From UHGV virus genome UHGV-1364187: a DNA stretch of 64,000 nt; one strand, given 5' to 3'. The notes below the pieces were generated by a model. That model worked only from the letters and a program-made list of their open reading frames with translations, was not told the origin of the DNA and searched no databases. The first letter of the stretch is position 1; the number at the start of each line of letters is the position of its first letter. Source of the stretch: a virus. A program made the position numbers and the translations under genes. Shown piece by piece: positions 1,106 through 54,545 of the stretch.

Positions 1106-2611
1106 ATGAACTATAAGCGTTTAAAAATAGAATTATTAGATCCAGATAGATTGGTAAAAGTTAACAATTTACCAGAGATATCAGATCCAATATTCTTTAA
1201 GAGAGATAATATTCCTACTGAAAAAGGTTTATTGTCTAATGAGTTATTTGGTAATACTATATACGAAAGAGCTAATATATTTGCGTATATAGATCTTGGT
1301 GATTATTTTATTAATCCATTGATATTTAAAACTCTATGTAAACTAAATGCTAAGTTTAAAGATGCTGTTCATGGAACAAAATACTTTAAAATAATAGATG
1401 GTGATTTAGTAGAAGATATGAATGGTGATACTGGATTGGTTTGGCTTAAAGAAAACTTTTCTAAAATTAAATTTAAGAAAACTACATCTGAAAAAAGAGA
1501 TGTGAATATCGAATTTATAGAAAAGAATAGAAATCTAGTATTTATGAACAAACTAATAGTATTACCTCCATATTATAGAGACGTTGATACATCTAATGGT
1601 AGAACTAGTGTAGGTGGAGTAAATAAGATATATAATCTTATATTATTATCTGTAAGATCATTAAAAGAAACACAAGATTATGGATTAAATATATCTGATT
1701 CTATTAGAGGAAGAATACAGGATCAAATTATTGGTGTGTATAACTTCTTTACTAAGGGAGATGATATGACAACAGGTATTGTTTCAGAAAGTGCTGGTTT
1801 ATCTAAGAAAATGGGATTAGTTCGTAGAGCATTATATGCTAAAACTGCTGACTATGGAGATAGACTTATTATATCTTCTGCTGATATCAATTATGATAGA
1901 ATAGATGATATGATTGTAGATTTAGACCATTGCGGTCTTCCATTATCAGCATGTCTGTCTAATATGTTCGGCTTTATAATGTTCAATGTAAAACGTTTCT
2001 TTGAAAATGAATTTTCTTCTCCAAAATATCCATATATAGATAAGAATGGGGAATTAAATTATGTAACAGTAAAGGATCCAAACTTAGCATTTTCAGATGA
2101 AGTTATTAAACATGAATTGGAAAGATTCATTAAGGGATATTCTAATCGTTTTATACCTATAGAAGTTCCGAATGAAGAAGGAAAGAAAATCTATATGAGA
2201 TTTAAAGGACGTAATAAAGTATTAACTAATGAAGATGATATGGATGATAAAACTGGTATTATTAATCGTAGATTAACATGGTGTGATGTTTTTTATATGG
2301 CTGCTGTTGAGTCTGCTAAAGATAAACATGCACTTTTAACACGTTATCCACTAAATGACTATTTTGGTCAAGTGCCAAATAAGATACATGTGTTATCTAC
2401 TATTAAGACAGAAAAAGTAATACTAGATGGACAAATATATCCATACTATCCATATATAAGAGAAGAAATGATTGGGACAGATACTTCTAATATGTTTATA
2501 GATACACTTCAAATATCAAATCTTTTATTAAAGGGACTAGAAGGTGACTTTAAAATAACCCATTGGAGTCATCTCTGTTGTTATAAACAACTAAAACAAA
2601 AACCTCTTTAA
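1106..2611 (+). CDS. multisubunit RNA polymerase beta-prime homolog, N-terminal fragment (exon 1; 3' end reads into a group I intron)
   Basis: RBS GAAGGGAGAG then ATG at 1106. GLLSNELFGNTIYERANIFAYIDLGDYFINPLIFKTL matches the beta-prime GLFCxxIFGP...GHIELAxPxxHIWF region. KLIVLPPYYRDVD matches the LPVLPPDLRP region. GLVRRALYAKTADYGDRLIIS...DLDHCGLPLSA matches the [26 protein letters not shown]...LHQCGLPKKMA region. No N-terminal zinc finger. The last ~15 codons (HWSHLCCYKQLKQKPL) are probably intron-encoded read-through. Confidence 0.75.
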   Translation: MNYKRLKIELLDPDRLVKVNNLPEISDPIFFKRDNIPTEKGLLSNELFGNTIYERANIFAYIDLGDYFINPLIFKTLCKLNAKFKDAVHGTKYFKIIDGDLVEDMNGDTGLVWLKENFSKIKFKKTTSEKRDVNIEFIEKNRNLVFMNKLIVLPPYYRDVDTSNGRTSVGGVNKIYNLILLSVRSLKETQDYGLNISDSIRGRIQDQIIGVYNFFTKGDDMTTGIVSESAGLSKKMGLVRRALYAKTADYGDRLIISSADINYDRIDDMIVDLDHCGLPLSACLSNMFGFIMFNVKRFFENEFSSPKYPYIDKNGELNYVTVKDPNLAFSDEVIKHELERFIKGYSNRFIPIEVPNEEGKKIYMRFKGRNKVLTNEDDMDDKTGIINRRLTWCDVFYMAAVESAKDKHALLTRYPLNDYFGQVPNKIHVLSTIKTEKVILDGQIYPYYPYIREEMIGTDTSNMFIDTLQISNLLLKGLEGDFKITHWSHLCCYKQLKQKPL

Positions 2612-3990
2612 CTGCTGGAAACTCCTTAGAGCTAAATAAACTACAACGTAATCTGTAAAGATAAGCGTGAATGTTTGAAAATTATTTAGATTGGACAATC
2701 AGCAGCCAAGTTATCAATTATAATTTAACAATAAATGAAATTATATAAGTGATAGTAATACATATTACTATACTAAAATATATAAGGAGGTATTGTTATG
2801 AATGATAATTTCATAGTACCAGCATTTATTGTTAAAGAAAAAAGTAAGAGAAGAATTTATGGAACATCTTTTACAAAAAGAACAAGAACTTATATTTTAT
2901 GGCTACACTATATTTGAATATCCAGAAGAATGGAGACCTATAGAATGCTTTGATATTAAAAAAGGATTATACTTAATATCTAATTATGGTCGTGTGTATA
3001 GTATGCAACACAATGTGAATTATCGGTTTTACCTAATGATGGTTACAGACAAGTTGTATTACAAACAAAAGACAATAAAAGAAAGACATATTCCATACAT
3101 AGATTAGTTATATATACATTCATTCCAAAAACTGATGAAGATATAATAAATCAAAGAGATTATATTAATCATAAGAATCTTCATAGAGATTGTAATTTCA
3201 CATGGAATCTTGAATATGTAACACCTAATGAGAATACTATACACGCTATAATTAATAATGCCATTGGTGAAGATTATTCTTATGAATATAGTGGAAATTG
3301 GAGTAAAGGTGAAAGAACATTCGGTGAAAATAACGGAATGTCAGAGTGGACAGAAGAACAAGTTCATATTATATGTCAAGCATTACAAGATGGGAAAATC
3401 TACAAAAGATGCATTAACTTTAGCTGGAATTCCTGTAACTGATAACGCTATTTATAATGTAAGTCATATTGTTCAAGGTAAAAGGTGGAAGTATATTTCT
3501 AGTCAGTATAATATTCAACAGAAATGGAAGATAACTGATAAATCCGATTTTGTAATTCCAGTATGTGAATTGTTAGAGAAAGGTTATAGTCCATCTGAAA
3601 TTTATGAATTACTTCCAGATATTCTTGGTAAAAGAGATAATGTATTACCGTTTATACGAGGTATTAAAAGACGTAAATATTATACTAATATTAGTAAGAA
3701 TTATAATTGGTAAAAGGTTCAACGACTATCGAAAAGACATGTGCAAACATGGAACTTAGTAGAGTACACTTTATATAAAGTGGAAATGGGAGGCTTCTCT
3801 ATAAAGAGATGAAGATATAGTCTATCCGATATAGAAATATATCGCTATACTTATACGGATATTATAAATATTTCGTTATTTATAAAAATGATAGTCGTAT
3901 AAGTATTAAATTCCGAAGATGGGGACCAACTTTCGAGTAAAGTAGCGTATACGCTTGAAGCTAATGATGAGCTTGATAAGTATATGAATT
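2556..3990 (+). mobile_element. group I self-splicing intron carrying a degenerate HNH homing-endonuclease ORF; boundaries approximate
   Basis: 5' block TAACTGCTGGAAACTCCTTAGAGCT...AATCAGCAGCCAAGTT (CTGCTG/CAGCAG pairing) and 3' core GTTCAACGACTATCGAAAAGACATGT...ACATGGAACT.AGTAGAGTACAC...AGTGGAAATGG...GATATAGTCT (P7-like GACTAT/ATAGTC) are shared with the second intron at 37.4-37.8 kb. The HEG ORF sits in a peripheral loop between the two blocks. Confidence 0.7.
2799..3713 (+). pseudogene. HNH/NUMOD4 homing endonuclease gene, interrupted by at least three frameshifts
   Basis: Frame A 2799-: MNDNFIVPAFIVKEKSKRR. Frame B 2829..3107: PEEWRPIECF...YLISNYGRVYS (NUMOD4-like). Frame C ~3026..3440: GYRQVVLQTKDNKRKTYSIHRLVIYTFIPKTDEDIINQRDYINHKNLHRDCNFTWNLEYVTPNEN (HNH motif). 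Frame D 3258..3713: GKSTKDALTLAGIPVTDNAIYNVSHIVQGKRWKY (C-terminal HTH typical of HNH HEGs). The shifts coincide with the A6 run at ~2836, the T4 run at ~3027 and the A4 run at ~3408. Confidence 0.7.
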
Positions 3991-4114
3991 CTAACTCATA
4001 TTATATCGACATGGGTGGAAATTGTATTCGTACAACGACCAACGAAGCAATTCAAGCTATATACTCTTTAACAAAAGTTGTAGATAAATCGAAATTAACA
4101 GATCCAATATTCTA
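3957..4114 (+). CDS. putative short 3' exon of the RNAP beta-prime N-fragment gene (LEANDELDKYMNSNSYYIDMGGNCIR...DPIF*)
   Basis: Open frame immediately after the intron 3' core, ending at TAA ~4112-4114 and followed by a strong terminator. The exact 3' splice site is not determined. Confidence 0.3.
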
Positions 4115-4126
4115 AAATATAATAAT

Positions 4127-8043: not shown

Positions 8044-9066
8044 TTATAGTTGTATAAAAGTGTCAATAATTCTATCTGGGCTTACGCCATAATCTTTTTC
8101 TCCGATACAATTATTAGTGTGCAGATATGTTGGAATTCCAAAAACCTGCAATACTTGTGATAGTTGTATAAATTGTGCGATATCTACTTCACTATCACGA
8201 TATATGTGAACTTCACAATAGAACATATTAAGTTTAATTAATTGGTCTATTAGTGAAAGATAATTTTTATTCTGTAATGCATAGTATATACCTGGTTCTC
8301 TATTACGAAGATTTAAATATACCGATAATATATCAAAAGGACCTTCTGCCAAGCACACTAGCGTTCTTTTAGATGTATTTAAATATACCTGAGTAGGTAT
8401 AATATAATATGAATCATCCATATCATCATTGAATATTTTGTAGTTTACATATCTCTTATCTACATATTTAGAGACTTTCCCTTCTCTAAGATTTCTCATA
8501 TTTATAGCACCATTATGTCCAGCTATAAAACCAATAAATGAAGAGTTTAACTCATCCATTACCATTGGATATCTAGTATATTCTTTTATGTTATTATAAT
8601 TCAATAGATCATATAGATTTAAAACTATTTTAAGATTTATAATATCATTATAAGTAAGTTGAGTTCCTAAGCGTTTATTTATAAAAGCAAGTTTAAGTTC
8701 ACTCATCTTACTATCTGATATATACCCGTTCTGAATTGTATATATTCTTTGATTATTCTTATTTACTCTTGGTTTATATTTTGATTCTTTATACCCTTTG
8801 TTTAATTCTAATGCTAATTCAGAATCAAATATACCAATTGAATTTAAAAATTGAGTTGTGACTATTCCGCTATTAGGACATCTTTTACAATGGTACATCG
8901 GAATACCATTATTCATTCCTATATATAAATGTGTTGAATGATCGTCACAATTATTACATCTCATACATACTTCATTACCACCAGAACATGGTCTGGCTGA
9001 AGAAATATTTTCTAATAGCAAGCTTTTAAGATGTTCCCATATGTCTATATCTGCCATATTATTCAC
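8044..9066 (-). CDS. DNA primase (zinc-ribbon plus TOPRIM)
   Basis: Zinc ribbon: CSGGNEVCMRCNNCDDHSTH...HCKRCPNSG. TOPRIM: LAEGPFDILSVY with the E, plus YRDSEVD with the DxD. Confidence 0.7.
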   Translation of the reverse strand: MNNMADIDIWEHLKSLLLENISSARPCSGGNEVCMRCNNCDDHSTHLYIGMNNGIPMYHCKRCPNSGIVTTQFLNSIGIFDSELALELNKGYKESKYKPRVNKNNQRIYTIQNGYISDSKMSELKLAFINKRLGTQLTYNDIINLKIVLNLYDLLNYNNIKEYTRYPMVMDELNSSFIGFIAGHNGAINMRNLREGKVSKYVDKRYVNYKIFNDDMDDSYYIIPTQVYLNTSKRTLVCLAEGPFDILSVYLNLRNREPGIYYALQNKNYLSLIDQLIKLNMFYCEVHIYRDSEVDIAQFIQLSQVLQVFGIPTYLHTNNCIGEKDYGVSPDRIIDTFIQL

Positions 9067-10390: not shown

Positions 10391-12016
10391 CTATATTAGT
10401 AATAAATATATTAATACTTCTTCCATAATAATAGAAGGTATGTTTTCTACAATAGTCCCATTGAGTTCTGGATCATCATAATCTACAATCTTAAAAGTAC
10501 TTACTGATAAAGTTGCAATGAAAGATAGAATATCTTCTACAAATCTATCATGTTCTTTTCTAGATTGAGAATATCTCATTTTCATCTCTTTCTCTATATT
10601 AGGGTCATAATACATATTGCTATCAACTCCAACAATATCATTCATTGAGAATACGTTAGATAGACCTACATATTTCTCTATTACATATTTAAAGTAGATT
10701 GAGTTAGATAGTTCTGTATATTCTTTTTTATTGATATTCTTCTTCCTAATAAGCTTAACAACATTACCACTTATTATATATGGTAATATTCTTAAGTTAT
10801 GGCCTTCTAATAATCTCTTAGCAGCTATTACTAGTTTGATATATTCTTCTATATTATCAAGAGATTTGATACTCATTGGATCTCCAAAATACTTCATGAA
10901 TAGATTGAATACTAATTCTTTTTGAAATTTATTGATCTTTCCTCCGAACTCTTTATAATAGAAATTTATTTCGTCTTGTTCAAAAGGACCATATAACATT
11001 TCTATTTGCTTCATTGTATATGAGCAGTTTACATCATTTTGCAATAACAATGATTCATCATTACGAATTAATAAACTCTCATATTTATCAAACTCACTAT
11101 TATTATCTTCATCTCTGTTAGATAATGATAAAGGAATGAAACTGTATTCCCATGTAATACCAGTAATTTGAAATCCATTGTTGTTATTGATAGAACCAAA
11201 GTTCAAACTAACAATGTTCTTATTATATACATACTTAGGTAATACATTTAAGAGAATATTATCTATACATGATAATGCATGTGTAGTAACGTTTTTACTT
11301 CTGATATCTTGTTGATCCCACAATCCAGTATCACGCTTATATGAAGTATTAACATTTGTAATTGCTGTTTCATATAACTTATTGTATAGATCAACATCAC
11401 TGTACAATTCGATATTCAATAATATATCACATATTGTAAGAATAAAGTTATTGTCATCTTCTGAAGATCTCATATACATAAAATGACATGCTAATGGAAT
11501 GATCATATTCATTAACATACTAATTCTCATTAACAGTTTAGCATGTCTATTAGTATAACAAATAGCTGAATTGTTATTCTTATATACTAAGTCTATTATA
11601 TAATTATCATCGTTCATATTCTTAACTTTCCATAGAATAGTAGGAGATAATATATATCTTTGTATATCAGCTAAAAAATTGTCTTTGGTATAAGAAGCTT
11701 CATAATCGATAAGATATTTTATTTTAGAATAAATCATAAATAACTCTTTATCTTGATCATAGAACTTCTCGAAATAGTTTAAATAATGACACATATGCTC
11801 TTTCATCTCTTGAGTTGCATAGCATCGTTTGGACGTTAGAATAAAATAATCTATAGATCGTTTATCTTCATCATCTAATCCATAGAAATCGAAAATAGGA
11901 GCAACAAATGCTCCTTTACAATGTGTGAATAACATATCATCCTCATTAGGAATCCAATCATCCACTTTAGGATTGTTATAAGATCTCTCTTCTGATATTG
12001 TTGCTGGTACTATCAT
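10391..12016 (-). CDS. hypothetical protein (541 aa) starting with the terminal tag MIVPATISEERS
   Basis: RBS AAGGAGG-10 nt-ATG; N-terminal IVPATI plus charged module. Confidence 0.55.
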   Translation of the reverse strand: MIVPATISEERSYNNPKVDDWIPNEDDMLFTHCKGAFVAPIFDFYGLDDEDKRSIDYFILTSKRCYATQEMKEHMCHYLNYFEKFYDQDKELFMIYSKIKYLIDYEASYTKDNFLADIQRYILSPTILWKVKNMNDDNYIIDLVYKNNNSAICYTNRHAKLLMRISMLMNMIIPLACHFMYMRSSEDDNNFILTICDILLNIELYSDVDLYNKLYETAITNVNTSYKRDTGLWDQQDIRSKNVTTHALSCIDNILLNVLPKYVYNKNIVSLNFGSINNNNGFQITGITWEYSFIPLSLSNRDEDNNSEFDKYESLLIRNDESLLLQNDVNCSYTMKQIEMLYGPFEQDEINFYYKEFGGKINKFQKELVFNLFMKYFGDPMSIKSLDNIEEYIKLVIAAKRLLEGHNLRILPYIISGNVVKLIRKKNINKKEYTELSNSIYFKYVIEKYVGLSNVFSMNDIVGVDSNMYYDPNIEKEMKMRYSQSRKEHDRFVEDILSFIATLSVSTFKIVDYDDPELNGTIVENIPSIIMEEVLIYLLLI

Positions 12017-12043: not shown

Positions 12044-12072
12044 TACTTCATATATATAATATATGATTTATT
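12044..12072 (-). promoter_or_regulatory. conserved promoter motif upstream of the 12016 gene
   Basis: reverse complement reads AAATAAATCATATATTATATATATGAAGT. Confidence 0.4.
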
Positions 12073-12826
12073 TCTTTTTTACTACCGTACTTGTTCGAGA
12101 TTTATTAGTAGTTTTTGTTTTAGTAACAGATTTAACTGGTTGTTTTACATTACTCTGTTTATCAATAACATTGTCTTTAACTGGACGTTTTTCAACTTTA
12201 TTTCTTTTAGCTCTCTTTTCAGCTTCTATTCTTTTTCCTTGTTCTTGTCTAGCCAAGATTTTAGTATCTGCGTCTTCTATAGATGCAACAAATAATTTCT
12301 TATTGAATGGTTTAACATAAATTTCAAATACATTCTTTTGGAATAAACCTTTTGAATTCATAATAAGATATAAAAAGAATAATGATTTTACATATCCTAC
12401 ATTACTTCCAGCATTTCTTTCTTTAGCTACAGTATTTAAGAATGTCTTAGGCATCTTTGGTTTAAGCATATCTATAAACATATTATGTTTCTTAAATGCA
12501 TGAGCAAAAGTGAAACAGAATGATGGATCATTAGAATAAAATCTTACATCATAATCTCTTAAATCTTTTTTCATTGAAGTAAATGGATTAATTGTACTAA
12601 ATTCCACCACAGTATCATAGTAAAATTTTGGAACAACCTCACTTGGTATTCTAATATGTACAATATAATCATTACCATTCATATATAAATTATAAGTTAT
12701 TTTACCAGCTTCTCTCAACATAATCAGATCTAATTTTTTCTTATACATATCTCTATACATTTGCATATTTGAAAAAACTGAATTCTTTTTTCCCATAGGG
12801 TTTTTGATATAATCATCAAATGTCAT
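12068..12826 (-). CDS. hypothetical protein with lysine-rich C-terminal tail
   Basis: ORF. Confidence 0.45.
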   Translation of the reverse strand: MTFDDYIKNPMGKKNSVFSNMQMYRDMYKKKLDLIMLREAGKITYNLYMNGNDYIVHIRIPSEVVPKFYYDTVVEFSTINPFTSMKKDLRDYDVRFYSNDPSFCFTFAHAFKKHNMFIDMLKPKMPKTFLNTVAKERNAGSNVGYVKSLFFLYLIMNSKGLFQKNVFEIYVKPFNKKLFVASIEDADTKILARQEQGKRIEAEKRAKRNKVEKRPVKDNVIDKQSNVKQPVKSVTKTKTTNKSRTSTVVKKK

Positions 12827-12919: not shown

Positions 12920-14617
12920 TTACATGTATTTATTCTCTGCAGTATTTCTACAGATAAATTGATTTGATGTATAAATCAATGTAAGAATTTTAGCAATAGC
13001 ATCTAATACTGCACAATCTGATTCAATAGATGCAATAATATCTTTATTAAATTCTTTCTTTACGACATCGTATACTACAGTTCCTTTTTGTTCAATGATA
13101 TTATTAATAATCCCATCAGAATCTGTAATATTCGAATTTGAATATAAGATTTTAATAAGATTTCTATATGATCTATTGATAATATTCTTTATAGTATCTT
13201 TATGATAATCATTAGAATAATCAATTACATATGATGCGTATAATCCTTCAACATTAGATGCCATACCATAACCATGTTCATCAGCAGATCTAATATTAAG
13301 AACAGCATCTTCTACTAAATCTCTTACAGAATCTCTATCAGCAGCACTAATACCACCAATATGAAATTCTACTAAATTTCCTTTAAGAGATTGAATTCTA
13401 CGTTTCATCTCACCAATTTCATGAGCATTTGCTCCTTGTTCTTTTCGTTTCTTTAATTCTGTCTCTAAATAGTTTAAGTGAACATTGAATGTTTTTGAAT
13501 AGTCTCCATTTTCATCTCTCATTTCTTTTGGATTGACAAATTTGGATTTATCAGCATCACATTCAAATACTTCACATGTACCGTAGAAATCTTTTGAAAT
13601 ATTATCTAATGTTGGAGCTAATCCCTTTTTAACCATTTCTTCATAGATCTTCTTATCAATAGATTTCTGAATAGGTTTTGCTCCAATCATTTTAATGATA
13701 TCCATATATTGTTCTGTTTGTGTAATATTCGTAACTACACATAATGGAAGTCTACTCTCTGATGATTGTTGAGAGAACATTCCAATGATATTGTCTATGT
13801 AATTACTCATATCCCTAGAAATACTTGGTACCAAGATTACAGTTGGTACAATCATATCTGGTTTATTTTCATTGATAGCTGTAACAATATTATCATAGAT
13901 AATCTTATCAAAGAATTGAGCTTGTTCTAATGTATTGATAGGATCAATAAATGCATAGATTCTTGGTTTAGGAATAATACATTTATTCTTAGATGTATTT
14001 ACAAATGATGGGTCCATATATCCACATTGTAAATTCATACCGTTATATTCTTTTAAAGCTGTTACTCCATTAGAAGATACAGCTACGTCGATGAATACAC
14101 CTGAACCAAATTTAGCATAAATATCTCTTAATGTTTCAGCAATTCTTACGTTTCCATTAGTAGATACCATTGCAATTTTATATACAGCATCTAAATCTAA
14201 TTCTTTAGATCTAGTTTTAATTTGTTTAATAATATCATTAACTACACTTTGGAATTGTCTCATAACTTCAAAAGGTGTTAAATCTTTAGATATAGAGCTT
14301 TTTAACAATTCTTCAAAGATAAGATGTGAAAGTAAAATAGCTGATGTTGTTCCATCTCCAACTTCTTTTACTACAGATCTTGTAATTTCATAGATATCTT
14401 CTTTAGTCGAACTTTCAATATCTCCTATAACTTCAATTTTACTCAAAATAGACTTACCGTCTTTTGTATATCTTGTAAGAGTTTGAGTACCTCCACTGAT
14501 TGTAGTGTTAGATCCATCAGGACCAAAAGATAACTTTAAACAATCTGCTAAGAATTTTAAAGTTTCTAATCTAACCTCTACTAATTTTTTACCTGATACT
14601 ACATTTGATCTAATCAT
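12920..14617 (-). CDS. GroEL/Cpn60-family chaperonin
   Basis: LADCLKLSFGPDGSNTTI...TKDGKSILSKIEV...VKEVGDGTTSAILLSHLI aligns to the GroEL segment LADAVKVTLGPKGRNVVL...TKDGVSVAREIEL...AGDGTTTATVLA (GDGTT ATP-binding motif). Confidence 0.75.
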   Translation of the reverse strand: MIRSNVVSGKKLVEVRLETLKFLADCLKLSFGPDGSNTTISGGTQTLTRYTKDGKSILSKIEVIGDIESSTKEDIYEITRSVVKEVGDGTTSAILLSHLIFEELLKSSISKDLTPFEVMRQFQSVVNDIIKQIKTRSKELDLDAVYKIAMVSTNGNVRIAETLRDIYAKFGSGVFIDVAVSSNGVTALKEYNGMNLQCGYMDPSFVNTSKNKCIIPKPRIYAFIDPINTLEQAQFFDKIIYDNIVTAINENKPDMIVPTVILVPSISRDMSNYIDNIIGMFSQQSSESRLPLCVVTNITQTEQYMDIIKMIGAKPIQKSIDKKIYEEMVKKGLAPTLDNISKDFYGTCEVFECDADKSKFVNPKEMRDENGDYSKTFNVHLNYLETELKKRKEQGANAHEIGEMKRRIQSLKGNLVEFHIGGISAADRDSVRDLVEDAVLNIRSADEHGYGMASNVEGLYASYVIDYSNDYHKDTIKNIINRSYRNLIKILYSNSNITDSDGIINNIIEQKGTVVYDVVKKEFNKDIIASIESDCAVLDAIAKILTLIYTSNQFICRNTAENKYM

Positions 14618-22427: not shown

Positions 22428-23231
22428 ATGGTAAACAATATAGGATATATGATCTGTGAAGTAGCATCTTCAGAAGCTAGAAAACCTGTTATCGTTGATA
22501 GGGTAAACGATCGTGTAGTAATAGAAGCTATTTTACAAGATCTTAATATTAAAAATAGAAATGGCAGATATTATTCAACAGAAGAACTAATACCTCAATT
22601 AACATGTGAAAGAACAATGGAACTTCTTAATGCAAATGGTATTCCTGGTGAAGCTGGTCATCCATTAGCAAAAGATTTAGTACGTCAACAATCTATAGAC
22701 CCAATGAGGGTAAGCCATTATATAACAAAATTATGGCATGATAGAAATGATATTAAAGGTCATGTTAGAGCAGCCAGAGGTCAAGCTGGTGATTTATTTA
22801 ATGATACAGTTCTTGATGGCATTAAAATGGCATTCTCATTAAGAGCACTAGGTACAGTTGTTAATACAAAAAATGGTGCAGAAGTTAAAAATATTAAAGT
22901 AATTACATGGGACTGGGTGTATTATCCATCGCACAAACGTGCATATCAAACTGGTATTGTTACTGAATCATCTATAATGAATGATGAACAAAATGGTGTT
23001 ACTGGATTATTTACACCATTTAATACAAAACAGGTAATAAACTTTATTAAAGAATCATCATGTAATTTCAAAACTATAACAGAATCTTTTGAATTTTTAT
23101 ATAAAGATATTACCATGATAGATCCTAAACATGTACAACTTGTAGCTGATAGTGGTGAAGTTGTAGTTTGTAAACTAGAAGATCATGTAAGTAATGAAAT
23201 TATGTCATATTGTAGAGGATTTAAATACTAA
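22428..23231 (+). CDS. hypothetical protein (possible prohead protease or core protein by position only)
   Basis: ORF with RBS AAAAGGAGGACATTATA ATG; contains GEAGHP. Confidence 0.4.
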   Translation: MVNNIGYMICEVASSEARKPVIVDRVNDRVVIEAILQDLNIKNRNGRYYSTEELIPQLTCERTMELLNANGIPGEAGHPLAKDLVRQQSIDPMRVSHYITKLWHDRNDIKGHVRAARGQAGDLFNDTVLDGIKMAFSLRALGTVVNTKNGAEVKNIKVITWDWVYYPSHKRAYQTGIVTESSIMNDEQNGVTGLFTPFNTKQVINFIKESSCNFKTITESFEFLYKDITMIDPKHVQLVADSGEVVVCKLEDHVSNEIMSYCRGFKY

Positions 23232-31481: not shown

Positions 31482-33551
31482 TTATTCTTCATCTCTTTTT
31501 ACTATCGTTGCTGGAACTACCATATCATTATTATATTTAACTTCTGTAGAATAATCCCCAGGAGCATTAATAAAATCATAATAGTTAACCATAAAGAATA
31601 AATCCATAAAACTTGGAGATCTCTTCTTAAATGTTGCTGCTGTATAAATAGCTCTCTTAGTTCTTTCATATGATAATGAGATAGCTACACTAGGATGATT
31701 ATTCAATGCTTTACTTAATGTCAAGATTGTATATCTGTTATTGTTAGGAATAGACCAATCTGGTTTTTCTAAGATTTCATCAGATTCAAGTCCAAGTCTA
31801 ATTTGATTTGCTATAATAACTTCACAGTGTATAGCATCTGTCTTTACATCACCCTCAATACATGTTTCAACAAATGTTTGGATTAATGAATCTATAGTAT
31901 GTTTAGATGTAACTTCGCTCTTATTGATAAGATTAGTTAATCTCTTAAGAGTATCAGCAAGACCATTATTTCTAATCTGCATCATAAATATATTCATTTC
32001 ATTAATCTCATCAAATGGTATTGTAACAATACCATCAACATCAGTATATTTATCTATCATAGCAGATAGTTCTGGTGTAAAGTAAATATCATCATCATCT
32101 TCTGTTGACAATGAGAATAAGTTTCCTTCTTCATCTCTAACTTTAATCTCACATACAGATTGATTATACTCATAGTTTTCATATTCATTTTCAATATGAA
32201 TTTCACTATCAATAATCAATAAAGTGTCTTTTATCTCTATATCATCTCTAATAGATATAAGATTTCCATCTAATATAAAGAAGTCACCAAATTGTTTAAC
32301 CCATTTAAGTTCTTTAATTTTCGCTTCTAATAGATGCTTTGCTGATAAAAGTTTTTGAGTCAATTCTGATGATAATAATTCAGCTGCAATCTTACCAATA
32401 TTGATATCCCTATTAGTGTATGCAACATCCCCATAACATTTATAACAAATACCATTACCTTCTGAAAATGATTTACATTTAGCAGGAGATCTAAAGTAAA
32501 CAGTTTTACCAATAAGATCCATTTCCATTCCTGTTATCATAAACTCTTGTCCATCTGGATAGAATCTATAATATCTAGAGATATATTTCTTCAGCATTTC
32601 ATAACTAGTAATAGTTATCTTAACGAAATTTCTTGTACCACAATCATAATTTGGATCTTCATTAAGCTCTGTATCTTGATTATTTAAACCTAATAAACGT
32701 GCTAAATGCCCACTATCAGATACATTAGTCTTAGATAATAATTGTGCAGTACGACCACTATATTCCTCAATAGTGTGTTCTGTAGCATTACTTAATCCAC
32801 CAACAATATAGTTTGAATTAATAATCTTACTAAAGATCCCACCAACTCCATTTGGTTTAGCACCACCAGCTACAGCAAACTCTCTATGCTGTTTCTTATT
32901 AATAGCTTCTCTAGCTTTAAATGAATCTTTATAACAATGATCTTCTGAATTTTTAATAATATCAACAAGTTCATCATTAAGTTGATTTGCTATATTATTA
33001 ACTTCATTTATAGGATATCCAGATAAATCACAATGCATAATATCGTATGCTCTCGGGTTTTCATTCATAAGATCTCTATAATCTTTAAGATTAGCAGTAT
33101 TAGCCAAGAACATACTAAATTCATCTATAGATTTGAATTGATATTCGATATCATCTATGATATTATTTAACCTAATATTATCCATATCTTTTCTATATGG
33201 AATAATAAGATAATTATTGATAAAGTCTGCTATCATGTCAGCTACAAAATCATCTTCAAATACTAGATGTTTTGGTTCGATATGATTTCCTGTCATAACT
33301 ACAAGTTTCCATAATGCTATATTAGTATAACTATCTGGTATTGACAAATCAACATCTGTACCATCGTCAAACACATAAGTGATAAAGTTGGACATTACTT
33401 GATCACTATTAATTCCATCTCTTAATACATTTAAGAGAGAGTTAAAGTAATAATCTACATTATCAGATGTAATATCTTTTGTGTAGATTATTGTTTTCTC
33501 GCCTCTTGTAAAACTTACAAAAGGACCATAGTTTTCTGGATAATCAAACAT
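31482..33551 (-). CDS. multisubunit RNA polymerase beta-prime homolog, C-terminal fragment; C-terminal tag [14 protein letters not shown]
   Basis: [53 protein letters not shown] aligns to the beta-prime trigger-loop region SPLTC..[63 protein letters not shown] aligns to [22 protein letters not shown] (region F). Confidence 0.7.
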   Translation of the reverse strand: [689 protein letters not shown]

Positions 33552-36326: not shown

Positions 36327-37373
36327 ATGGTCTTAGAAGAAAATTTAAATGATATGGAAGTTATCAAAAGATACAAGCAATTTTTTAAGGAGATGATTTG
36401 GTTTAATAAACCAAACATATCTGAGCAAGAATTAGAAGATGTAATGAATTGGTCAATACAGAAGAGAATCAAAAATTCATCATTAGAATTATATGATTCT
36501 TATAAGGAAAAACGAGCAGATTCATCAGTATTAGAATGGCTAGAATACTTCTATGCTAATGAACCAATTATAACTCCCAATGGGGTTATGTTTAAAAAAC
36601 ATAATGAAGAGCTTAATCCTGTGAATAAAATGATACAGGGATTCTTAAAAACACGTGCTAAATACAAAAAAGAAATGTTTAAATATCCTAAAGGATCTCG
36701 TGAATTTGAAAAATATAACCTACTTCAACTTCTCTCCAAGATTGATGCTAATAGTATATATGGTTGTTTAGGTAATTGGAGTGCTGTATATTATAACGTA
36801 AATGTTGCTAGTTCAGTTACAGCATGTGGTAAATCTTCTATTTCAGCAGCAGGTTTAGCATTTGAACAGTTCTTAGCAAATAACGTTAAATTTAGAAAGT
36901 TAGACGAAGTTATAGTATTTATTAATCATATCATTAAAGAAAAACCAAATAGAAAATTCAATGATAAAGATATTCTAGATAGAGATATTACAGTAGAAGA
37001 ATGTTTTATAAAAGTAATGTCTACATGTGGTCATGGTTATACTCCTTCTATGGAAGATTGTGAAATCATATGGGATATTATTAGTAAACTTAACAGTGAA
37101 GATCTTAATAGAATATACTATAAGAATAATCTATTAGAATTCTTTGACAATAAAGTAATGACTAATATGGTTATAGAAGTATTAAAGAGACTCAATAAAC
37201 CTTGGATGGATCCGAATAAAGTTCCAAAAGAAATTGAACTTGAAATGGATACAATGTGGGATTTAGTAAGTGAATATGTATTTTATAAATATCAAATCAT
37301 TGATAGACAAGATAGATTAGAGTTTCTTCCAAGAAAAATTACATGTATTATAGACACCGACTCTTTTGCATAA
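36327..37373 (+). CDS. family-B DNA polymerase, C-terminal (palm/thumb) part, exon 1
   Basis: Motif B QLLSKIDANSIYGCLGN (KxxxNSxYG) followed by ASSVTACGKSSI. Motif C TCIIDTDSFA (DTDS) lies at the very end of the ORF. No motif A (DxxSLYPS) and no exonuclease domain, so the N-terminal half must be encoded elsewhere. Confidence 0.75.
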   Translation: MVLEENLNDMEVIKRYKQFFKEMIWFNKPNISEQELEDVMNWSIQKRIKNSSLELYDSYKEKRADSSVLEWLEYFYANEPIITPNGVMFKKHNEELNPVNKMIQGFLKTRAKYKKEMFKYPKGSREFEKYNLLQLLSKIDANSIYGCLGNWSAVYYNVNVASSVTACGKSSISAAGLAFEQFLANNVKFRKLDEVIVFINHIIKEKPNRKFNDKDILDRDITVEECFIKVMSTCGHGYTPSMEDCEIIWDIISKLNSEDLNRIYYKNNLLEFFDNKVMTNMVIEVLKRLNKPWMDPNKVPKEIELEMDTMWDLVSEYVFYKYQIIDRQDRLEFLPRKITCIIDTDSFA

Positions 37374-37778
37374 TAAACTGTTTTATTATGTAAATAGGAG
37401 CATTATATAGTAATATATAATGAAAACCCTTTTAATTGCTGGGAAGCCTTAAAGCTCACCTGCCTATATTTTAATGAATATAGGAACGAAAGTAGAAACA
37501 AGTGGTGAGATAGTATATGGTGTAAACCTAAGTACTGCAAACAATGGGTAATCAGCAGCGAAGTTTCTTATAAAGTTATAAGAAGAACGTTCAACGACTA
37601 TCGAAAAGACATGTTTATATAAACATGGAACTGAGTAGAGTACACTCAAGTGAGTGGAAATGGAGGGGGTCTTATTTTATATAAGATCATGATATAGTCT
37701 GCTCACTATGGAAACATAGTGAAGTTCATAAGAGAACTGCATAGAATTAACGACTCTATGTGAACATAAAGGAATATT
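37368..37778 (+). mobile_element. ORF-less group I intron inserted immediately after the PolB DTDS codons; boundaries approximate
   Basis: TTAATTGCTGGGAAGCCTTAAAGCT...AATCAGCAGCGAAGTT and GTTCAACGACTATCGAAAAGACATGT...ACATGGAACTGAGTAGAGTACAC...AGTGGAAATGGAGGGGG...GATATAGTCTGCTC match the intron in the beta-prime gene block for block (P7-like GACTAT/ATAGTC). A P9-like hairpin CACTATGgaaaCATAGTG follows. Confidence 0.75.
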
Positions 37779-38849
37779 TTGAACTTAGATTTTTGGTATA
37801 GATTTATCAAAGATAAAGTAATCGGTATTGATATGAAAATTAAACATGAAATGTATGACATTGCAGAAATCATTAAAGCTGATGAATTTGGTGATAGAGA
37901 AATGATGAAGCCTGCAGAGATAGTAGATATCGAAGATGATTATGATTTCTATGAAGATGAAACAGTAGAAATGGAAAGATTAATCAATCCTGCAAAATTA
38001 GTACCAAATGACTCATTAAGATATTCTATAATAAATATTATAGCATACTTATGTGGTAATATGATTAATGAAGAGATGGTATTATACACAAAACAGAACA
38101 ATTCTTATAGTCCTGATAGACCATGTAGTCTTATTATGAAGAATGAATTCTTATTTAAAAGAGTTTTATTGACAAATGTAAAGAAAAGCTACGCTAGCAT
38201 CATAGAGGTTCAGGAAGGAAATATAGTACCATCTTCCAGTTCATTGGACGTGAAAGGATTACAAATTAGAAAATCAACACTACCAAAAAGAACAAGAGAT
38301 CAATTACAAAGTATATTATATGAAGATATACTAAACTCTGGAGATAATCTCGATCAAAGATGCATACTCAAAGATATTATATTATTAGAAAAACAAATTT
38401 ATAAATCACTTACATCTGGTAGTAAAGAATACTTTAGACCAGCACAAGTTAAAGCTATGGGATCATATGAAAATCCACTAAGAATTTCTGGATTTAAGGG
38501 ATGTGTTGTATGGAATGAGTTAACAGATCTTAATACAGAAAAACATGATCTTAATATTAGAAATGCTGTTGATATTATCAAAGTAGTTTTAAATGCAAAA
38601 ACTGTCGATAAATTAAAAGATTTTCCTGATGTATATGAGAGAGCTGTGAAGCTATTAAACGATCCATCATTTGCAGGGGGAATTAATGGTATATCTGTAC
38701 CATTAGGAGTAGAAACACCAGAGTGGTTATATCAAATTATCGATTATAATACAATTATTAATGATAATTTATCAGTAATGCCATTAGAAAGTGTAGATAT
38801 AATTATTGGAAATTCCAATATAAACTATTCAAATATGGTGCAAATGTAA
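37779..38849 (+). CDS. family-B DNA polymerase, exon 2 (thumb)
   Basis: Open frame resumes right after the intron core. The ORF-track TTG at 37779 is not a real start. Exact 3' splice site not determined. Confidence 0.6.
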   Translation: MNLDFWYRFIKDKVIGIDMKIKHEMYDIAEIIKADEFGDREMMKPAEIVDIEDDYDFYEDETVEMERLINPAKLVPNDSLRYSIINIIAYLCGNMINEEMVLYTKQNNSYSPDRPCSLIMKNEFLFKRVLLTNVKKSYASIIEVQEGNIVPSSSSLDVKGLQIRKSTLPKRTRDQLQSILYEDILNSGDNLDQRCILKDIILLEKQIYKSLTSGSKEYFRPAQVKAMGSYENPLRISGFKGCVVWNELTDLNTEKHDLNIRNAVDIIKVVLNAKTVDKLKDFPDVYERAVKLLNDPSFAGGINGISVPLGVETPEWLYQIIDYNTIINDNLSVMPLESVDIIIGNSNINYSNMVQM

Positions 38850-41689: not shown

Positions 41690-42697
41690 TTAAATTGCTA
41701 CTGAAGCTTTAATAGCATCACCACATTTATATCCATTAATCTTAATATCTTCTAGTTTAATATTTCTAATATCTTCGCCTAATAGATCTTTAGTAAATTC
41801 AATCTTAGGTAAGTCGTATAATTCTCTAGATAGATATTCTTTTGCCTGATCAATATGATTTTGGTAAATATGTGTATCGCCAAAATTATATGTCATTGTT
41901 CCAACTTGTAATCCACTAATAGCACCCATCATATGTAAAAAGATTCCATATTCTGCTAAATCAAATGGAACCCCTAGAATACTGTCAGCACTACGTTGAT
42001 TTACAATCATATGTAATTTATCATTGATTACTAAAAACTGGATAGAAAATACACAAGGTGGTAAATCTACATAAGGAACACTAGCAGTATTCCATGAATT
42101 AAGAATAATTCTTCTTGAATCTGATTTACTCTTAATAAGTTTTTGTGTAATATCTAATTGGTCTACAATGTTCACAACGACTTCTTGTTCTTGAGTATTC
42201 ATATTATTCATTTCTACATGTTTATTATACTTCCAAGCATTACCATAGATATCTTCATATACTGTAAGTTCTCTAGATGTAATTTCATCATTAAGAATCT
42301 TTTGTTCAAAGATATCGAGTTGTTCTCTATATAGTTTAGCAAATTCTTCATCCTTATCTTTTAATACAGTCCAATTGTCTGGGAATACTGGTCCTGTATA
42401 TTTTTCATTTTCTGGGCATTTTCCCTCAATATATCTTTTAAATTTCCATTCTGTCCAGATATGTACATTTTGCTCTAATAATGTCTTTAAGTTTTGTTCT
42501 CCATTAATGAACCATAAAAGTTCTTTAATAGCTGTTCTATAAGCAGTTCTTTTTCCAGTAACAATAGGAACACTACCATCTGATAAATCAAATTTCATAC
42601 TATAACCAGGAATACGGATAGTTCCTACTCCAGTTCGGTCTGTGCTAACTTCACCTGTTTCTAAAATAGTTTTAATCATTTCTTTATATTGTTTCAT
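41690..42697 (-). CDS. thyA: thymidylate synthase family enzyme (ThyA-like; a dCMP or dUMP hydroxymethylase cannot be excluded)
   Basis: MKQYKEMIKTILETGEVSTDRTGVGTIRIPGYSMKFDL...VTGKRTAYRTAIKELLWFINGEQN and DLPPCVFSIQFLV...NQRSADSILGVPFDLAEYGIFLHMM...GDTHIYQNH align with the ThyA signature including the catalytic Cys (PPC). Confidence 0.75.
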   Translation of the reverse strand: MKQYKEMIKTILETGEVSTDRTGVGTIRIPGYSMKFDLSDGSVPIVTGKRTAYRTAIKELLWFINGEQNLKTLLEQNVHIWTEWKFKRYIEGKCPENEKYTGPVFPDNWTVLKDKDEEFAKLYREQLDIFEQKILNDEITSRELTVYEDIYGNAWKYNKHVEMNNMNTQEQEVVVNIVDQLDITQKLIKSKSDSRRIILNSWNTASVPYVDLPPCVFSIQFLVINDKLHMIVNQRSADSILGVPFDLAEYGIFLHMMGAISGLQVGTMTYNFGDTHIYQNHIDQAKEYLSRELYDLPKIEFTKDLLGEDIRNIKLEDIKINGYKCGDAIKASVAI

Positions 42698-54099: not shown

Positions 54100-54116
54100 A
54101 AAAGGAGAGATTGATT

Positions 54117-54545
54117 ATGAAAACAAACAAAGAATATATGGAAATGGCTATTAAAGCTTCACAAAATAGTAACGATGAACACACTAAAGTCGGATGTATT
54201 ATTGTATCAAAAGAAGGATATATTGTATCTAGAGGTCATAATCGTATCATTAAAGATACACTACCAAAAGGTAGAGATGGAGAATGGTTAAATACAAAAT
54301 ATCCATATGTACTTCATAGTGAAATCGATGCTTTAAATAAAGTTTATCATAGAAATTTATTAGAATGTGCAAGTATTTACGTGACACTATTCCCATGTAA
54401 TAATTGTATGCTTGCTTTAGCAAATGCTGGGATTAAGAAAGTGTATTATATGTGTGATAAATATGCAGATAAAGACTTTACAATTGCAGCTAAGATTATT
54501 GCTAAAGAATGCGGTATAGAATTAGAACAAGTGGAGGTGGAATGA
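54117..54545 (+). CDS. dCMP deaminase
   Basis: HSEIDAL (H-x-E) and PCNNCMLAL (PCxxC) zinc-binding motifs of the CMP/dCMP deaminase family; ATG at 54117 after AAAAGGAGAG. Confidence 0.75.
   Translation: MKTNKEYMEMAIKASQNSNDEHTKVGCIIVSKEGYIVSRGHNRIIKDTLPKGRDGEWLNTKYPYVLHSEIDALNKVYHRNLLECASIYVTLFPCNNCMLALANAGIKKVYYMCDKYADKDFTIAAKIIAKECGIELEQVEVE

What the first reader, a model, noticed from the sequence alone, without database searches (positions are those of the whole stretch)
1106..2611. Split multisubunit RNA polymerase: beta-prime N- and C-terminal fragments are separate genes 27 kb apart on opposite strands
ORF 1106-2611 aligns with the N-terminal conserved regions of bacterial beta-prime, and ORF 33551..31482 aligns with the C-terminal ones. 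The feature table quotes the aligned segments.

Neither fragment shows an obvious NADFDGD. The closest stretch is YVFDDGTDVD near the start of the C-fragment. These are therefore highly diverged beta-prime pieces of the kind used by phiKZ-like and AR9-like jumbo phages, which encode a virion and a non-virion RNAP as separate polypeptides.

Which of the two polymerases each fragment belongs to cannot be told from this window.
Basis: partly seen in the sequence, partly recalled or inferred. Interest (0 to 1): 0.55.

Follow-up and report, generated by a model that had tools for sequence, protein, structure and literature searches.

The report
Intron-split catalytic motif in phage RNA polymerase
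Both ORFs are real pieces of jumbo-phage RNA polymerase β′, but they belong to two different polymerases, and the "missing" catalytic motif of the first is present, cut in two by a self-splicing group I intron; this arrangement is already known from phage AR9, apart from the intron's unusual last base.

Summary
ORF 1106-2611 (+) and ORF 31482-33551 (-) are both β′ homologs of an uncultivated, AT-rich, AR9-like jumbo phage from a 256.5-kb gut-type metagenome contig. Two points of the interpretation need correcting.

(1) ORF 1106-2611 is only exon 1. A 1,366-nt group I intron (2552-3917) carrying a decayed NUMOD4/HNH homing-endonuclease gene splits the catalytic motif as GDF|DGDQ. Exon 2 is 3918-4115. 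The spliced 547-aa protein aligns ungapped with intron-less relatives (…LEGDFDGDQLSSK…) and with bacterial β′ NADFDGDQ. "YVFDDGTDVD" is irrelevant.

(2) The two ORFs are not partners. The N-piece is the virion-RNAP β′-N (AR9 gp145, phrog_2986). The C-piece is the non-virion-RNAP β′-C (AR9 gp154 / ΦKZ gp74, phrog_3015). A gp226-like non-virion subunit lies at 10391-12016.

Split β′ genes and introns in this gene are published for AR9/PBS1, where the intron sits 3 nt away. One feature is unusual. The intron's last base is A, not the near-universal G, in the window and in 2 of 11 related copies. P1/P10 covariation fixes the junction, and exon 2 is under purifying selection.

The parts
1106..2551 (+). 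Exon 1 of the virion-RNAP β′ N-terminal subunit gene (482 codons, ending …LLKGLEGDF)
   Evidence: phrog_2986 E 8e-61, matching profile positions 6-486 of 539. AR9 g145 tblastn E 5e-48 against 5e-7 for g270. Intron-less relatives P0002 and P0006 continue …GDFDGDQ….
2552..3917 (+). Group I intron, 1,366 nt, inserted between codons F482 and D483 of the Mg-binding motif; its terminal nucleotide is A3917
   Evidence: RF00028 half-matches at 2613-2751 (25.2 bits) and 3710-3844 (27.8 bits). ORF-less homologs score 55.1 bits (L017) and 37.3 bits (L015) full-length. The core is conserved across 7 aligned loci.
2543..2573 (+). P1 hairpin: exon end GGUGACUUU (2543-2551) pairs with internal guide GGAGUCAUC (2565-2573), with a U2551·G2565 wobble at the 5′ splice site. 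The adjacent guide bases 2559-2564 (CCCAUU) pair with exon 2 bases 3918-3923 (P10).
   Evidence: MFE fold. 9/9 P1 and 6/6 P10 pairs in the window. The same geometry, with compensatory changes tracking synonymous codon changes, is seen in 12 loci.
2798..3713 (+). Decayed homing-endonuclease gene (NUMOD4 plus HNH-type) in the P6 loop, preceded by Shine-Dalgarno AAGGAGG (2784-2790); broken by three 1-nt indels
   Evidence: NUMOD4 30.9 bits, above the 23.4 cut-off. tblastn of the intact 301-aa L010 ORF gives three segments in alternating frames at 67-75% identity. Indels mapped.
3724..3822 (+). P7-P3′-P8-P7′ catalytic core: P7 5′ strand GACUAU (3724-3729), J8/7 plus P7 3′ strand GAUAUAGUC (3814-3822)
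   Evidence: cmscan alignment. Both strands are identical in ω=A and ω=G relatives.
3918..4115 (+). Exon 2 (65 codons plus stop): DGDQLSSKVAYTLEAN…DPIF*
   Evidence: Frame translation. Conserved DGD…EAN.E…Y.LT in all homologs. There is an in-frame stop at 3900-3902 and no start codon before DGD. dN/dS about 0.1 against L010.
31482..33551 (-). Non-virion RNAP β′ C-terminal subunit (AR9 gp154 / ΦKZ gp74 ortholog), 689 aa
   Evidence: 7S00_D E 3e-39, 7OGP_D 3e-11. Its only AR9 hit is g154 (9e-41). phrog_3015, the family of AR9 g154. Synteny with PolB and an SF2 helicase as in AR9.
10391..12016 (-). Homolog of AR9 gp226, the promoter-specificity subunit of the non-virion RNAP
   Evidence: tblastn to AR9 g226 E 8.6e-14, within a conserved primase-g226-g227-GroEL block. 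phrog_25005 'RNA polymerase' E 1.4e-13.

Best explanation
The window comes from an uncultivated AR9-like jumbo phage that, like AR9 and ΦKZ, encodes two multisubunit RNA polymerases whose β′ is split after the catalytic double-psi β-barrel. Gene 1106-4115 (+) encodes the β′ N-terminal subunit of the virion polymerase, which by analogy is packaged and injected to transcribe early genes. The gene is interrupted inside the Mg2+-binding motif, between F482 and D483 of G-D-F-D-G-D-Q, by a 1,366-nt group I intron. After transcription the intron's internal guide sequence pairs with the last nine exon-1 bases (P1, U·G at the cleavage site) and with the first six exon-2 bases (P10). The two exons are then ligated to give a 547-aa protein with an intact DFDGDQ. 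The intron once moved by means of a NUMOD4/HNH-type homing endonuclease encoded in its P6 loop. In this genome that gene has decayed through three frameshifts, so the intron is now an immobile passenger that must still splice. ORF 31482-33551 (-) is an independent gene for the β′ C-terminal subunit of the other, non-virion polymerase, which works with the gp226-like subunit at 10391-12016 and with partners outside the window. Shown here: the homologies, the exon structure, the P1/P10 pairing with covariation, the endonuclease decay, and purifying selection on exon 2. Inferred: actual self-splicing, virion packaging, and the temporal roles of the two enzymes.
For: Exon/intron structure: the spliced product aligns in one piece over 97-99% of its length with uninterrupted genes of Listeria, Staphylococcus, Bacillus and Fusobacterium jumbo phages, with D481, D483, G484 and D485 invariant. 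Metagenomic relatives 73-78% identical read …LKGLEGDFDGDQLSSK… without interruption, while others break off exactly after GDF/GDY. The phmmer and profile matches to E. coli β′ 446-519 run ungapped across the junction. Group I identity: two Rfam half-hits flank the ORF. Homologous ORF-less copies match RF00028 full-length at 55.1 and 37.3 bits. P1 9/9 and P10 6/6 pairs in the window co-vary with synonymous codon changes across 12 loci. Expression of exon 2: no start codon, an in-frame stop just upstream, and dN 0.15 against dS 1.6 relative to L010. Polymerase assignment: N-piece to AR9 g145 (5e-48) against g270 (5e-7), and C-piece to g154 only. AR9 g145, g270, g154 and g264 map to phrog_2986, 2987, 3015 and 2962 respectively, and the window ORFs fall in 2986 and 3015. 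PDB 7S00_D and 7OGP_D match the C-piece. Precedent: AR9 g145 is annotated as a 3-piece join with intron-encoded endonucleases, and its second intron lies at GGDYD|GD. Introns in virion β′-N genes are described in PMC12350094.
Against: No RNA data are available, so splicing is inferred. The window's intron halves score below Rfam's gathering threshold (25-28 bits against 50), and the gathering-threshold scan of six related loci returned nothing. The intron's terminal nucleotide is A3917, not the G used by nearly all group I introns for exon ligation, so efficient second-step chemistry is not guaranteed. Virion versus non-virion assignment rests on orthology to AR9 at only about 27-28% identity. 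The partner subunits (gp264-like, gp270-like and the β pieces) were not found in the window.
Confidence: 0.85

Rival explanations
1. The two ORFs are the N and C halves of one split β′ whose catalytic motif has diverged beyond recognition.
For: Both are β′ homologs, one N-type and one C-type. The unspliced ORF indeed lacks DxDGD.
Against: The motif is intact after splicing. The N-piece groups with AR9 virion gp145 (phrog_2986) and the C-piece with non-virion gp154 (phrog_3015), which are distinct families from their counterparts gp270 (2987) and gp264 (2962).
Confidence: 0.04
2. The N-gene is a pseudogene or fission remnant. The insertion is an unspliced mobile element, and the protein ends at 2611 without a catalytic centre.
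For: The terminal intron base is A rather than G, the endonuclease ORF is decayed, and the Rfam scores in the window are sub-threshold.
Against: Exon 2 is conserved in frame with dN/dS about 0.1 while synonymous sites are saturated. P1 and P10 are perfectly maintained and co-vary. Two other loci with a terminal A keep intact exons and intact endonuclease ORFs. No second phrog_2986-type gene was seen in the window.
Confidence: 0.06
3. Splicing uses a canonical terminal G (G3918) instead. This gives either a frameshifted, truncated product (5′ splice site after U2551) or an in-frame but catalytically crippled product: DFNGD if cleavage follows A2552, or GDYGD if it follows U2549. Such a product could be a regulatory or dominant-negative form.
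For: G3918 directly follows A3917. A2552-U2564 could extend P1, as in the MFE fold. The first intron base is A in all copies.
Against: In the nine ω=G relatives the in-frame junction requires cleavage exactly after the U·G wobble, and the three ω=A copies have the same P1/P10 register. D483 is invariant in 24 of 24 aligned homologs. From established knowledge of β′, all three Asp residues of NADFDGD are needed for Mg2+ binding.
Confidence: 0.05

Closest known systems
Bacillus phage AR9/PBS1 gene g145 (virion RNAP β′ N-terminal subunit) and its introns
   Same: It is the orthologous gene (phrog_2986). It has the same β′ split after the DPBB. It is interrupted in the same catalytic motif by a group I intron with the same J8/7-P7 motif GAAGAUAUAGUC and an intron-encoded endonuclease (PMC12350094).
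   Different: The AR9 intron sits 3 nt downstream (GGDYD|GD against GDF|DGD) and ends in a canonical G. Its ORF is annotated as a 'Hef-like' endonuclease, not NUMOD4/HNH. AR9 has an additional upstream intron in this gene that the window lacks. Protein identity is only about 28%.
AR9 non-virion RNAP (PDB 7S00: gp270, gp154, gp105, gp089, gp226) and ΦKZ nvRNAP (7OGP, gp74)
   Same: The window's C-piece aligns with gp154 over residues 72-650 (E 3e-39) and with ΦKZ gp74. A gp226-like gene is present. The local gene order PolB, β′-C, helicase is as in AR9.
   Different: Identity is about 27%. An N-terminal extension of about 70 aa, containing YVFDDGTDVD, has no counterpart in the alignment. Whether this enzyme recognises uracil-containing template-strand promoters as AR9's does is unknown.
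ΦPA3 gp210 intron (HNH homing endonuclease in a virion-RNAP gene; Birkholz et al. 2024, PMC11620839)
   Same: It is a group I intron with an HNH-type nicking endonuclease, inserted next to conserved Asp residues of a jumbo-phage virion RNAP gene.
   Different: It interrupts the β-like subunit (ΦKZ gp178 homolog), not β′-N. Its endonuclease is active and confers competitive interference, whereas the window's is frameshifted.
Coxiella burnetii 23S rRNA group I intron lacking the canonical ΩG (Raghavan et al. 2007, cited in PMC3428280 ref. 20)
   Same: It is a natural group I intron whose terminal nucleotide is not G.
   Different: It lies in an rRNA gene of a bacterium. Only the title was available here, so the details rest on my memory. 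No relationship between the two introns was tested.
Cyanobacterial split β′ (γ/β′, rpoC1/rpoC2)
   Same: The split position after the DPBB domain is the same (PMC7598289). Automatic annotations of relatives even use the name 'rpoC1/gamma'.
   Different: It is a cellular enzyme with α and ω subunits and σ factors. It has no duplicate polymerase set and no intron.

Membership tests
Jumbo-phage virion RNAP β′ N-terminal subunit (AR9 gp145 type, phrog_2986) | Co-linear homology to the N-terminal half of bacterial β′ | tested here: met
   A profile of 24 family members hits 90 PDB β′ chains in two co-linear stretches: 125-294 to about 288-462, and 465-537 to E. coli 446-519.
Jumbo-phage virion RNAP β′ N-terminal subunit (AR9 gp145 type, phrog_2986) | Catalytic D-x-D-G-D near the C-terminus, with the polypeptide ending soon after the DPBB | tested here: met
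   Met only after removing 2552-3917. GDFDGDQ lies at residues 480-486 of 547, and the Asp/Gly positions are invariant.
Jumbo-phage virion RNAP β′ N-terminal subunit (AR9 gp145 type, phrog_2986) | Closer to the virion paralog than to the non-virion paralog | tested here: met
   AR9 g145 5e-48 against g270 5e-7. phrog_2986 8e-61 against phrog_2987 2e-3. AR9 g145 maps to 2986 and g270 to 2987.
Jumbo-phage virion RNAP β′ N-terminal subunit (AR9 gp145 type, phrog_2986) | Physical presence in virions and early-gene transcription | not testable with these tools
   Requires virion proteomics or biochemistry.
Non-virion RNAP β′ C-terminal subunit (AR9 gp154 / ΦKZ gp74, phrog_3015) | Near full-length homology to gp154 and gp74, and closer to these than to virion β′-C (gp264, phrog_2962) | tested here: met
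   7S00_D 3e-39 (72-650 against 65-628) and 7OGP_D 3e-11. phrog_3015 2e-47 against phrog_2962 1e-10. No tblastn hit to g264. AR9 mapping.
Non-virion RNAP β′ C-terminal subunit (AR9 gp154 / ΦKZ gp74, phrog_3015) | Assembly with β′-N, β-N, β-C and the gp226-like subunit | not testable with these tools
   Only the gp226-like gene is in the window. The other partners lie outside it.
Group I intron (Rfam RF00028) | P1 helix formed by the 5′ exon end and an internal guide, with U·G at the cleavage site; P10 with the 3′ exon | tested here: met
   9/9 P1 pairs with U2551·G2565 and 6/6 P10 pairs in the window. The pairs are maintained with compensatory changes in 12 loci.
Group I intron (Rfam RF00028) | Conserved catalytic core (P3-P8) recognised by the covariance model at the curated threshold | tested here: inconclusive
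   In the window there are two halves of 25.2 and 27.8 bits (E 9e-4 and 2e-4), below the gathering score of 50 because the ORF splits the core. The homologous ORF-less L017 scores 55.1 bits and L015 37.3 bits. The gathering scan of whole loci found none.
Group I intron (Rfam RF00028) | Terminal guanosine (ωG) preceding the 3′ splice site | tested here: not met
   A3917 precedes exon 2, and no sliding of the junction can restore a G while keeping DFDGD. ω is A in the window, L010 and L014, and G in nine related copies. So this is a non-canonical variant within an otherwise typical group I family.
Group I intron (Rfam RF00028) | Self-splicing with a guanosine cofactor | not testable with these tools
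   Requires an in vitro splicing assay or RT-PCR.
NUMOD4/HNH (I-HmuI-like) intron homing endonuclease | NUMOD4 DNA-binding module | tested here: met
   PF07463 30.9 bits against a 23.4 cut-off in the window fragment 2829-3107, and 29.0 bits in the intact L010 ORF.
NUMOD4/HNH (I-HmuI-like) intron homing endonuclease | HNH catalytic motif | tested here: inconclusive
   PF13392 scores only 18.6 bits (below the 24.8 cut-off), and only in the related L016 ORF. There are weak phrog_59 and phrog_959 'HNH endonuclease' hits. An …INHKNLHRDCNFTWNLEYVT..EN… stretch is visible in the frame translation.
NUMOD4/HNH (I-HmuI-like) intron homing endonuclease | Intact open reading frame | tested here: not met
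   Three single-base indels relative to the intact 301-aa L010 ORF split it into alternating frames.

The most novel reading that the evidence does not exclude
The intron in this window, together with its relatives in L010 and L014, represents a natural lineage, or two independent origins, of phage group I introns that ligate exons with a terminal adenosine instead of the near-universal ωG, while keeping an unchanged guanosine-binding P7 helix. In addition, the 15-nt stretch encoding G-G-D-Y/F-D-G-D of the virion RNAP β′ is a multi-site intron hot-spot occupied in roughly a quarter of a large uncultivated clade of AR9-like phages. That would suit the kind of intron-endonuclease interference competition shown for ΦPA3.
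Probability: 0.5. Interest if true: 0.55.

Novelty: new member of a known kind. Interest (0 to 1): 0.4.

Why it matters
For annotation, automatic gene callers truncate this essential gene at the intron. In 34 of the 120 best database homologs the predicted protein stops early, in 33 of them inside the catalytic motif. A reader can then wrongly conclude that the catalytic motif is missing, or pair up subunits from different polymerases. For biology, the locus adds an uncultivated gut-associated lineage to the AR9-type two-polymerase phages. It also shows that the Mg-binding motif of the virion polymerase is repeatedly targeted by mobile introns at three or more adjacent positions. Finally, it offers a natural set of closely related ω=G and ω=A group I introns at one site. 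That set is a ready-made system for asking how exon ligation tolerates a non-G terminal nucleotide.

Tried and rejected
(1) Pfam on the raw ORFs gave nothing for either β′ piece. PHROGs, AR9 comparison and PDB profile searches were needed.

(2) The search for related loci in viral contigs with the spliced protein found no relatives. An exact 24-nt intron pattern in viral contigs also found nothing. A degenerate core pattern later worked.

(3) The Rfam gathering-threshold scan of six related loci returned no hit. Short-region E-value scans were required.

(4) I looked for an alternative junction with a canonical ωG. Every in-frame option destroys the Asp triad (DYGD, DFNGD, DFDQ, DWDQ and so on) or introduces a stop. 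Junction sliding is impossible because the boundary bases differ (T/A on the left, A/G on the right) (reasoned).

(5) An intein was rejected because the insertion has stops in the exon frame.

(6) Genetic code 4 (TGA read as Trp) as an explanation for the broken endonuclease ORF was rejected. The breaks are frameshifts, not TGA codons, and the other genes are intact under table 11.

(7) Sequencing error as the cause of ω=A was rejected. The same A occurs in two other diverged loci, and an independent gut-metagenome assembly repeats the window's exon 1 and the first 60 nt of the intron exactly, though that contig stops short of ω itself.

(8) I could not read Raghavan 2007 or Lavysh 2016. A covariance model of the whole intron was not attempted because it exceeds the size that can be calibrated. 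No structure prediction was run, since sequence matches to solved β′ structures were already decisive.
Full report
OBSERVATION. The window is AT-rich (about 26% GC). It contains ORF 1067/1106-2611 on the + strand and ORF 31482-33551 on the - strand, as described. The protein collection holds exactly the 501-aa product of 1106-2611 (P0001) on a 256,505-bp ENA metagenome contig. The same product also occurs in an independent gut-metagenome assembly. Pfam recognises neither ORF. PHROGs places the first in phrog_2986 (E 8e-61) and the second in phrog_3015 (E 2e-47), both annotated as phage RNA polymerase subunits.

THE N-PIECE IS ONLY EXON 1. The phrog_2986 match stops at profile position 486 of 539, and the ORF ends …LLKGLEGDF-KITHWSHLCCYKQLKQKPL*. 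Directly downstream lie a NUMOD4-containing ORF and two complementary group I intron half-matches. The P3-P6 half is at 2613-2751 (25.2 bits) and the P7-P9 half is at 3710-3844 (27.8 bits). Further downstream, one frame reads …*VLNSE-DGDQLSSKVAYTLEAN…DPIF*. Joining 2551 to 3918 gives G-D-F-D-G-D-Q. The resulting 547-aa protein aligns in one piece over 97-99% of its length with uninterrupted genes of Listeria phage LPJP1, Staphylococcus phage S6, Bacillus phage BpSp and Fusobacterium phages. D481, D483, G484 and D485 are invariant. Metagenomic relatives 73-78% identical (P0002, P0006) read …LKGLEGDFDGDQLSSK… without interruption. Others (P0003, P0004, P0005, P0008) break off exactly after GDF or GDY into unrelated tails. 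Single-sequence and profile searches of the PDB align residues 465-537 with E. coli β′ 446-519 (…NADFDGDQMAVH…) without a gap at the junction. YVFDDGTDVD in the other ORF lies outside the region homologous to AR9 gp154.

THE INSERTION IS A GROUP I INTRON. The last nine exon-1 bases (GGUGACUUU, 2543-2551) pair with GGAGUCAUC (2565-2573), with U2551·G2565 at the cleavage site. The six bases just 5′ of that guide (CCCAUU, 2559-2564) pair with the first six bases of exon 2 (GAUGGG, 3918-3923). This gives contiguous P1 and P10 helices. I collected eleven further independent loci with an insertion at the same codon boundary. In all twelve, the same 15-nt guide forms 8-9 of 9 P1 pairs with the U·G wobble, and 4-6 of 6 P10 pairs. 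The guide co-varies with synonymous codon changes in the exons: GGT/GGA/GCA/GCT, TTT/TAT, GAT/GAC and GGG/GGC/GGT/GGA. The intron cores are plainly homologous. Two ORF-less copies of about 370 nt match Rfam RF00028 over the full model, L017 at 55.1 bits (gathering score 50) and L015 at 37.3 bits (E 4.5e-8). The P7 strands (GACUAU and AUAGUC, within GAUAUAGUC) are present in the window at 3724-3729 and 3817-3822.

EXON 2 IS EXPRESSED. Exon 2 has an in-frame stop at 3900-3902 and no start codon before DGD. Compared with L010, its synonymous sites are saturated (pS 0.66, dS about 1.6) while dN is 0.15. It is therefore translated, which requires exon ligation.

THE INTRON ORF IS A DECAYED HOMING ENDONUCLEASE. 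L010 and L012 carry intact 300-301-aa NUMOD4 ORFs in the same place. A more distant copy (L016) also gives a weak HNH_3 match. The window's version is 67-75% identical to L010's but is split over alternating frames by three single-base indels. Other long genes in the window are intact. This argues for real pseudogenisation, the expected late stage of the homing cycle (established knowledge; inference here).

WHICH POLYMERASE. I loaded the annotated AR9 genome. The spliced N-piece matches AR9 g145, annotated as the virion RNAP β′ N-terminus, at E 5e-48. It matches the non-virion g270 at only 5e-7. The C-piece matches only g154, the non-virion β′ C-terminus (9e-41), and not the virion β′-C gene g264. 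The four AR9 β′ pieces map to four separate PHROGs: g145 to 2986, g270 to 2987, g154 to 3015 and g264 to 2962. The window ORFs fall in 2986 and 3015. The C-piece also matches the solved AR9 nvRNAP chain 7S00_D (3e-39) and ΦKZ nvRNAP gp74 (3e-11). Local synteny (PolB, β′-C, SF2 helicase; primase, gp226-like, g227, GroEL) matches AR9. ORF 10391-12016 is a gp226-like subunit. Their partners lie outside the window.

COMPARISON WITH WHAT IS KNOWN. The review PMC7598289 states that β′ of both jumbo-phage polymerases is split after the DPBB domain, at the same place as in cyanobacteria. AR9 g145 is annotated as a three-piece join containing two endonuclease genes. [quoted passage not shown] I located AR9's downstream intron at GGDYD|GD. 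It has a canonical …UUUUG terminus and the same GAAGAUAUAGUC core motif. That is the same motif as in the window, but 3 nt further 3′. ΦPA3 carries an HNH-endonuclease intron in its virion β-like gene, and that endonuclease gives a competitive advantage (PMC11620839). So the split polymerase and the intron in this gene are both known kinds. The window adds a distant, uncultivated member (at most 35% identity to cultured phages).

WHAT IS UNUSUAL. Among the 120 best database homologs, 34 predicted proteins are truncated: 28 after GD[Y/F], 3 after GG, 2 after GDYDG, and 1 elsewhere. The motif therefore holds at least three adjacent insertion points. More notably, the base before the 3′ splice site is A in the window (…CCGAA|GAU), in L010 (…GCAAAA|GAC) and in L014 (…UAAACA|GAC). 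It is G in the other nine loci. No alternative junction restores a terminal G without destroying the invariant Asp triad or the reading frame. The P1/P10 register and the P7 sequence are the same in ω=A and ω=G copies. The A recurs in two other diverged loci, and an independent assembly repeats the window's exon 1 and intron start exactly, so sequencing error is unlikely. A natural precedent exists in a Coxiella 23S rRNA intron. I know it here only from its title, as cited in PMC3428280. Whether ligation with ωA is efficient cannot be decided computationally.

VERDICT. This is a new member of a known kind and is of moderate interest. The ω=A intron variant is the one feature worth an experiment.

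Noticed in passing
window 37365-37781 (+): A second group I intron with no ORF (Rfam RF00028, 81.6 bits) splits the family-B DNA polymerase gene (AR9 g152 homolog; exons about 36327-37364 and 37782-38849). It sits immediately after the catalytic D-T-D-S motif (…CIIDTDS|NLDFWY…) and ends in a canonical G. Both polymerase genes in the window are thus interrupted at their metal-binding motifs.
   Followed up: partly
window 3917; L010 6372; L014 5142: The terminal intron nucleotide is A instead of the near-universal ωG in 3 of 12 related introns at this site. The P7 helix and the P1/P10 register are unchanged, and the downstream exon is under purifying selection.
   Followed up: partly
window 10391-12016 (-): This is a homolog of AR9 gp226, the promoter-specificity subunit of the non-virion RNAP (tblastn 8.6e-14; phrog_25005 1.4e-13). 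It lies in a conserved block with primase (8044-9066), a g227-like gene (12068-12826) and GroEL (12920-14617).
   Followed up: partly
window 41690-42697 (-) and 54111-54545 (+): A strong thymidylate-synthase-family gene (phrog_160, E 1e-84) and a dCMP-deaminase-like gene are present. AR9/PBS1 have uracil-DNA, so this relative may use thymine or a hydroxymethyl-uracil-type base instead. No uracil-DNA-glycosylase-inhibitor homolog was seen in the window.
   Followed up: no
window 55266-57422 (+) and 22428-23231 (+): The terminase large subunit and the prohead protease are single uninterrupted ORFs here. Their AR9 orthologs (g121 and g114) are annotated as 5-piece and 2-piece joins. Intron positions therefore differ widely between these related phages.
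   Followed up: no
L014 and L016 compared with window, L010 and L012: Within one intron family at one insertion site, the endonuclease ORF sits in different places. In the window, L010 and L012 it follows P6. In L014 and L016 it lies downstream of the P7 5′ strand. L015, L017, L020 and L031-L033 lack an ORF (314-573 nt). This suggests repeated ORF gain and loss.
   Followed up: partly
L023, L024, L025/L027, L028: The conserved 26-nt P3-P4 core pattern of this intron also occurs in metagenome contigs next to unrelated coding sequence, not RNAP β′. Related introns therefore occupy other genes.
   Followed up: no
P0009, P0012, P0077; P0023, P0044: Database homologs truncated after GG or after GDYDG point to at least two further intron insertion points within the same 15-nt motif, besides the window's site. 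AR9's DYD|GD site is close to or the same as the GDYDG class.
   Followed up: no
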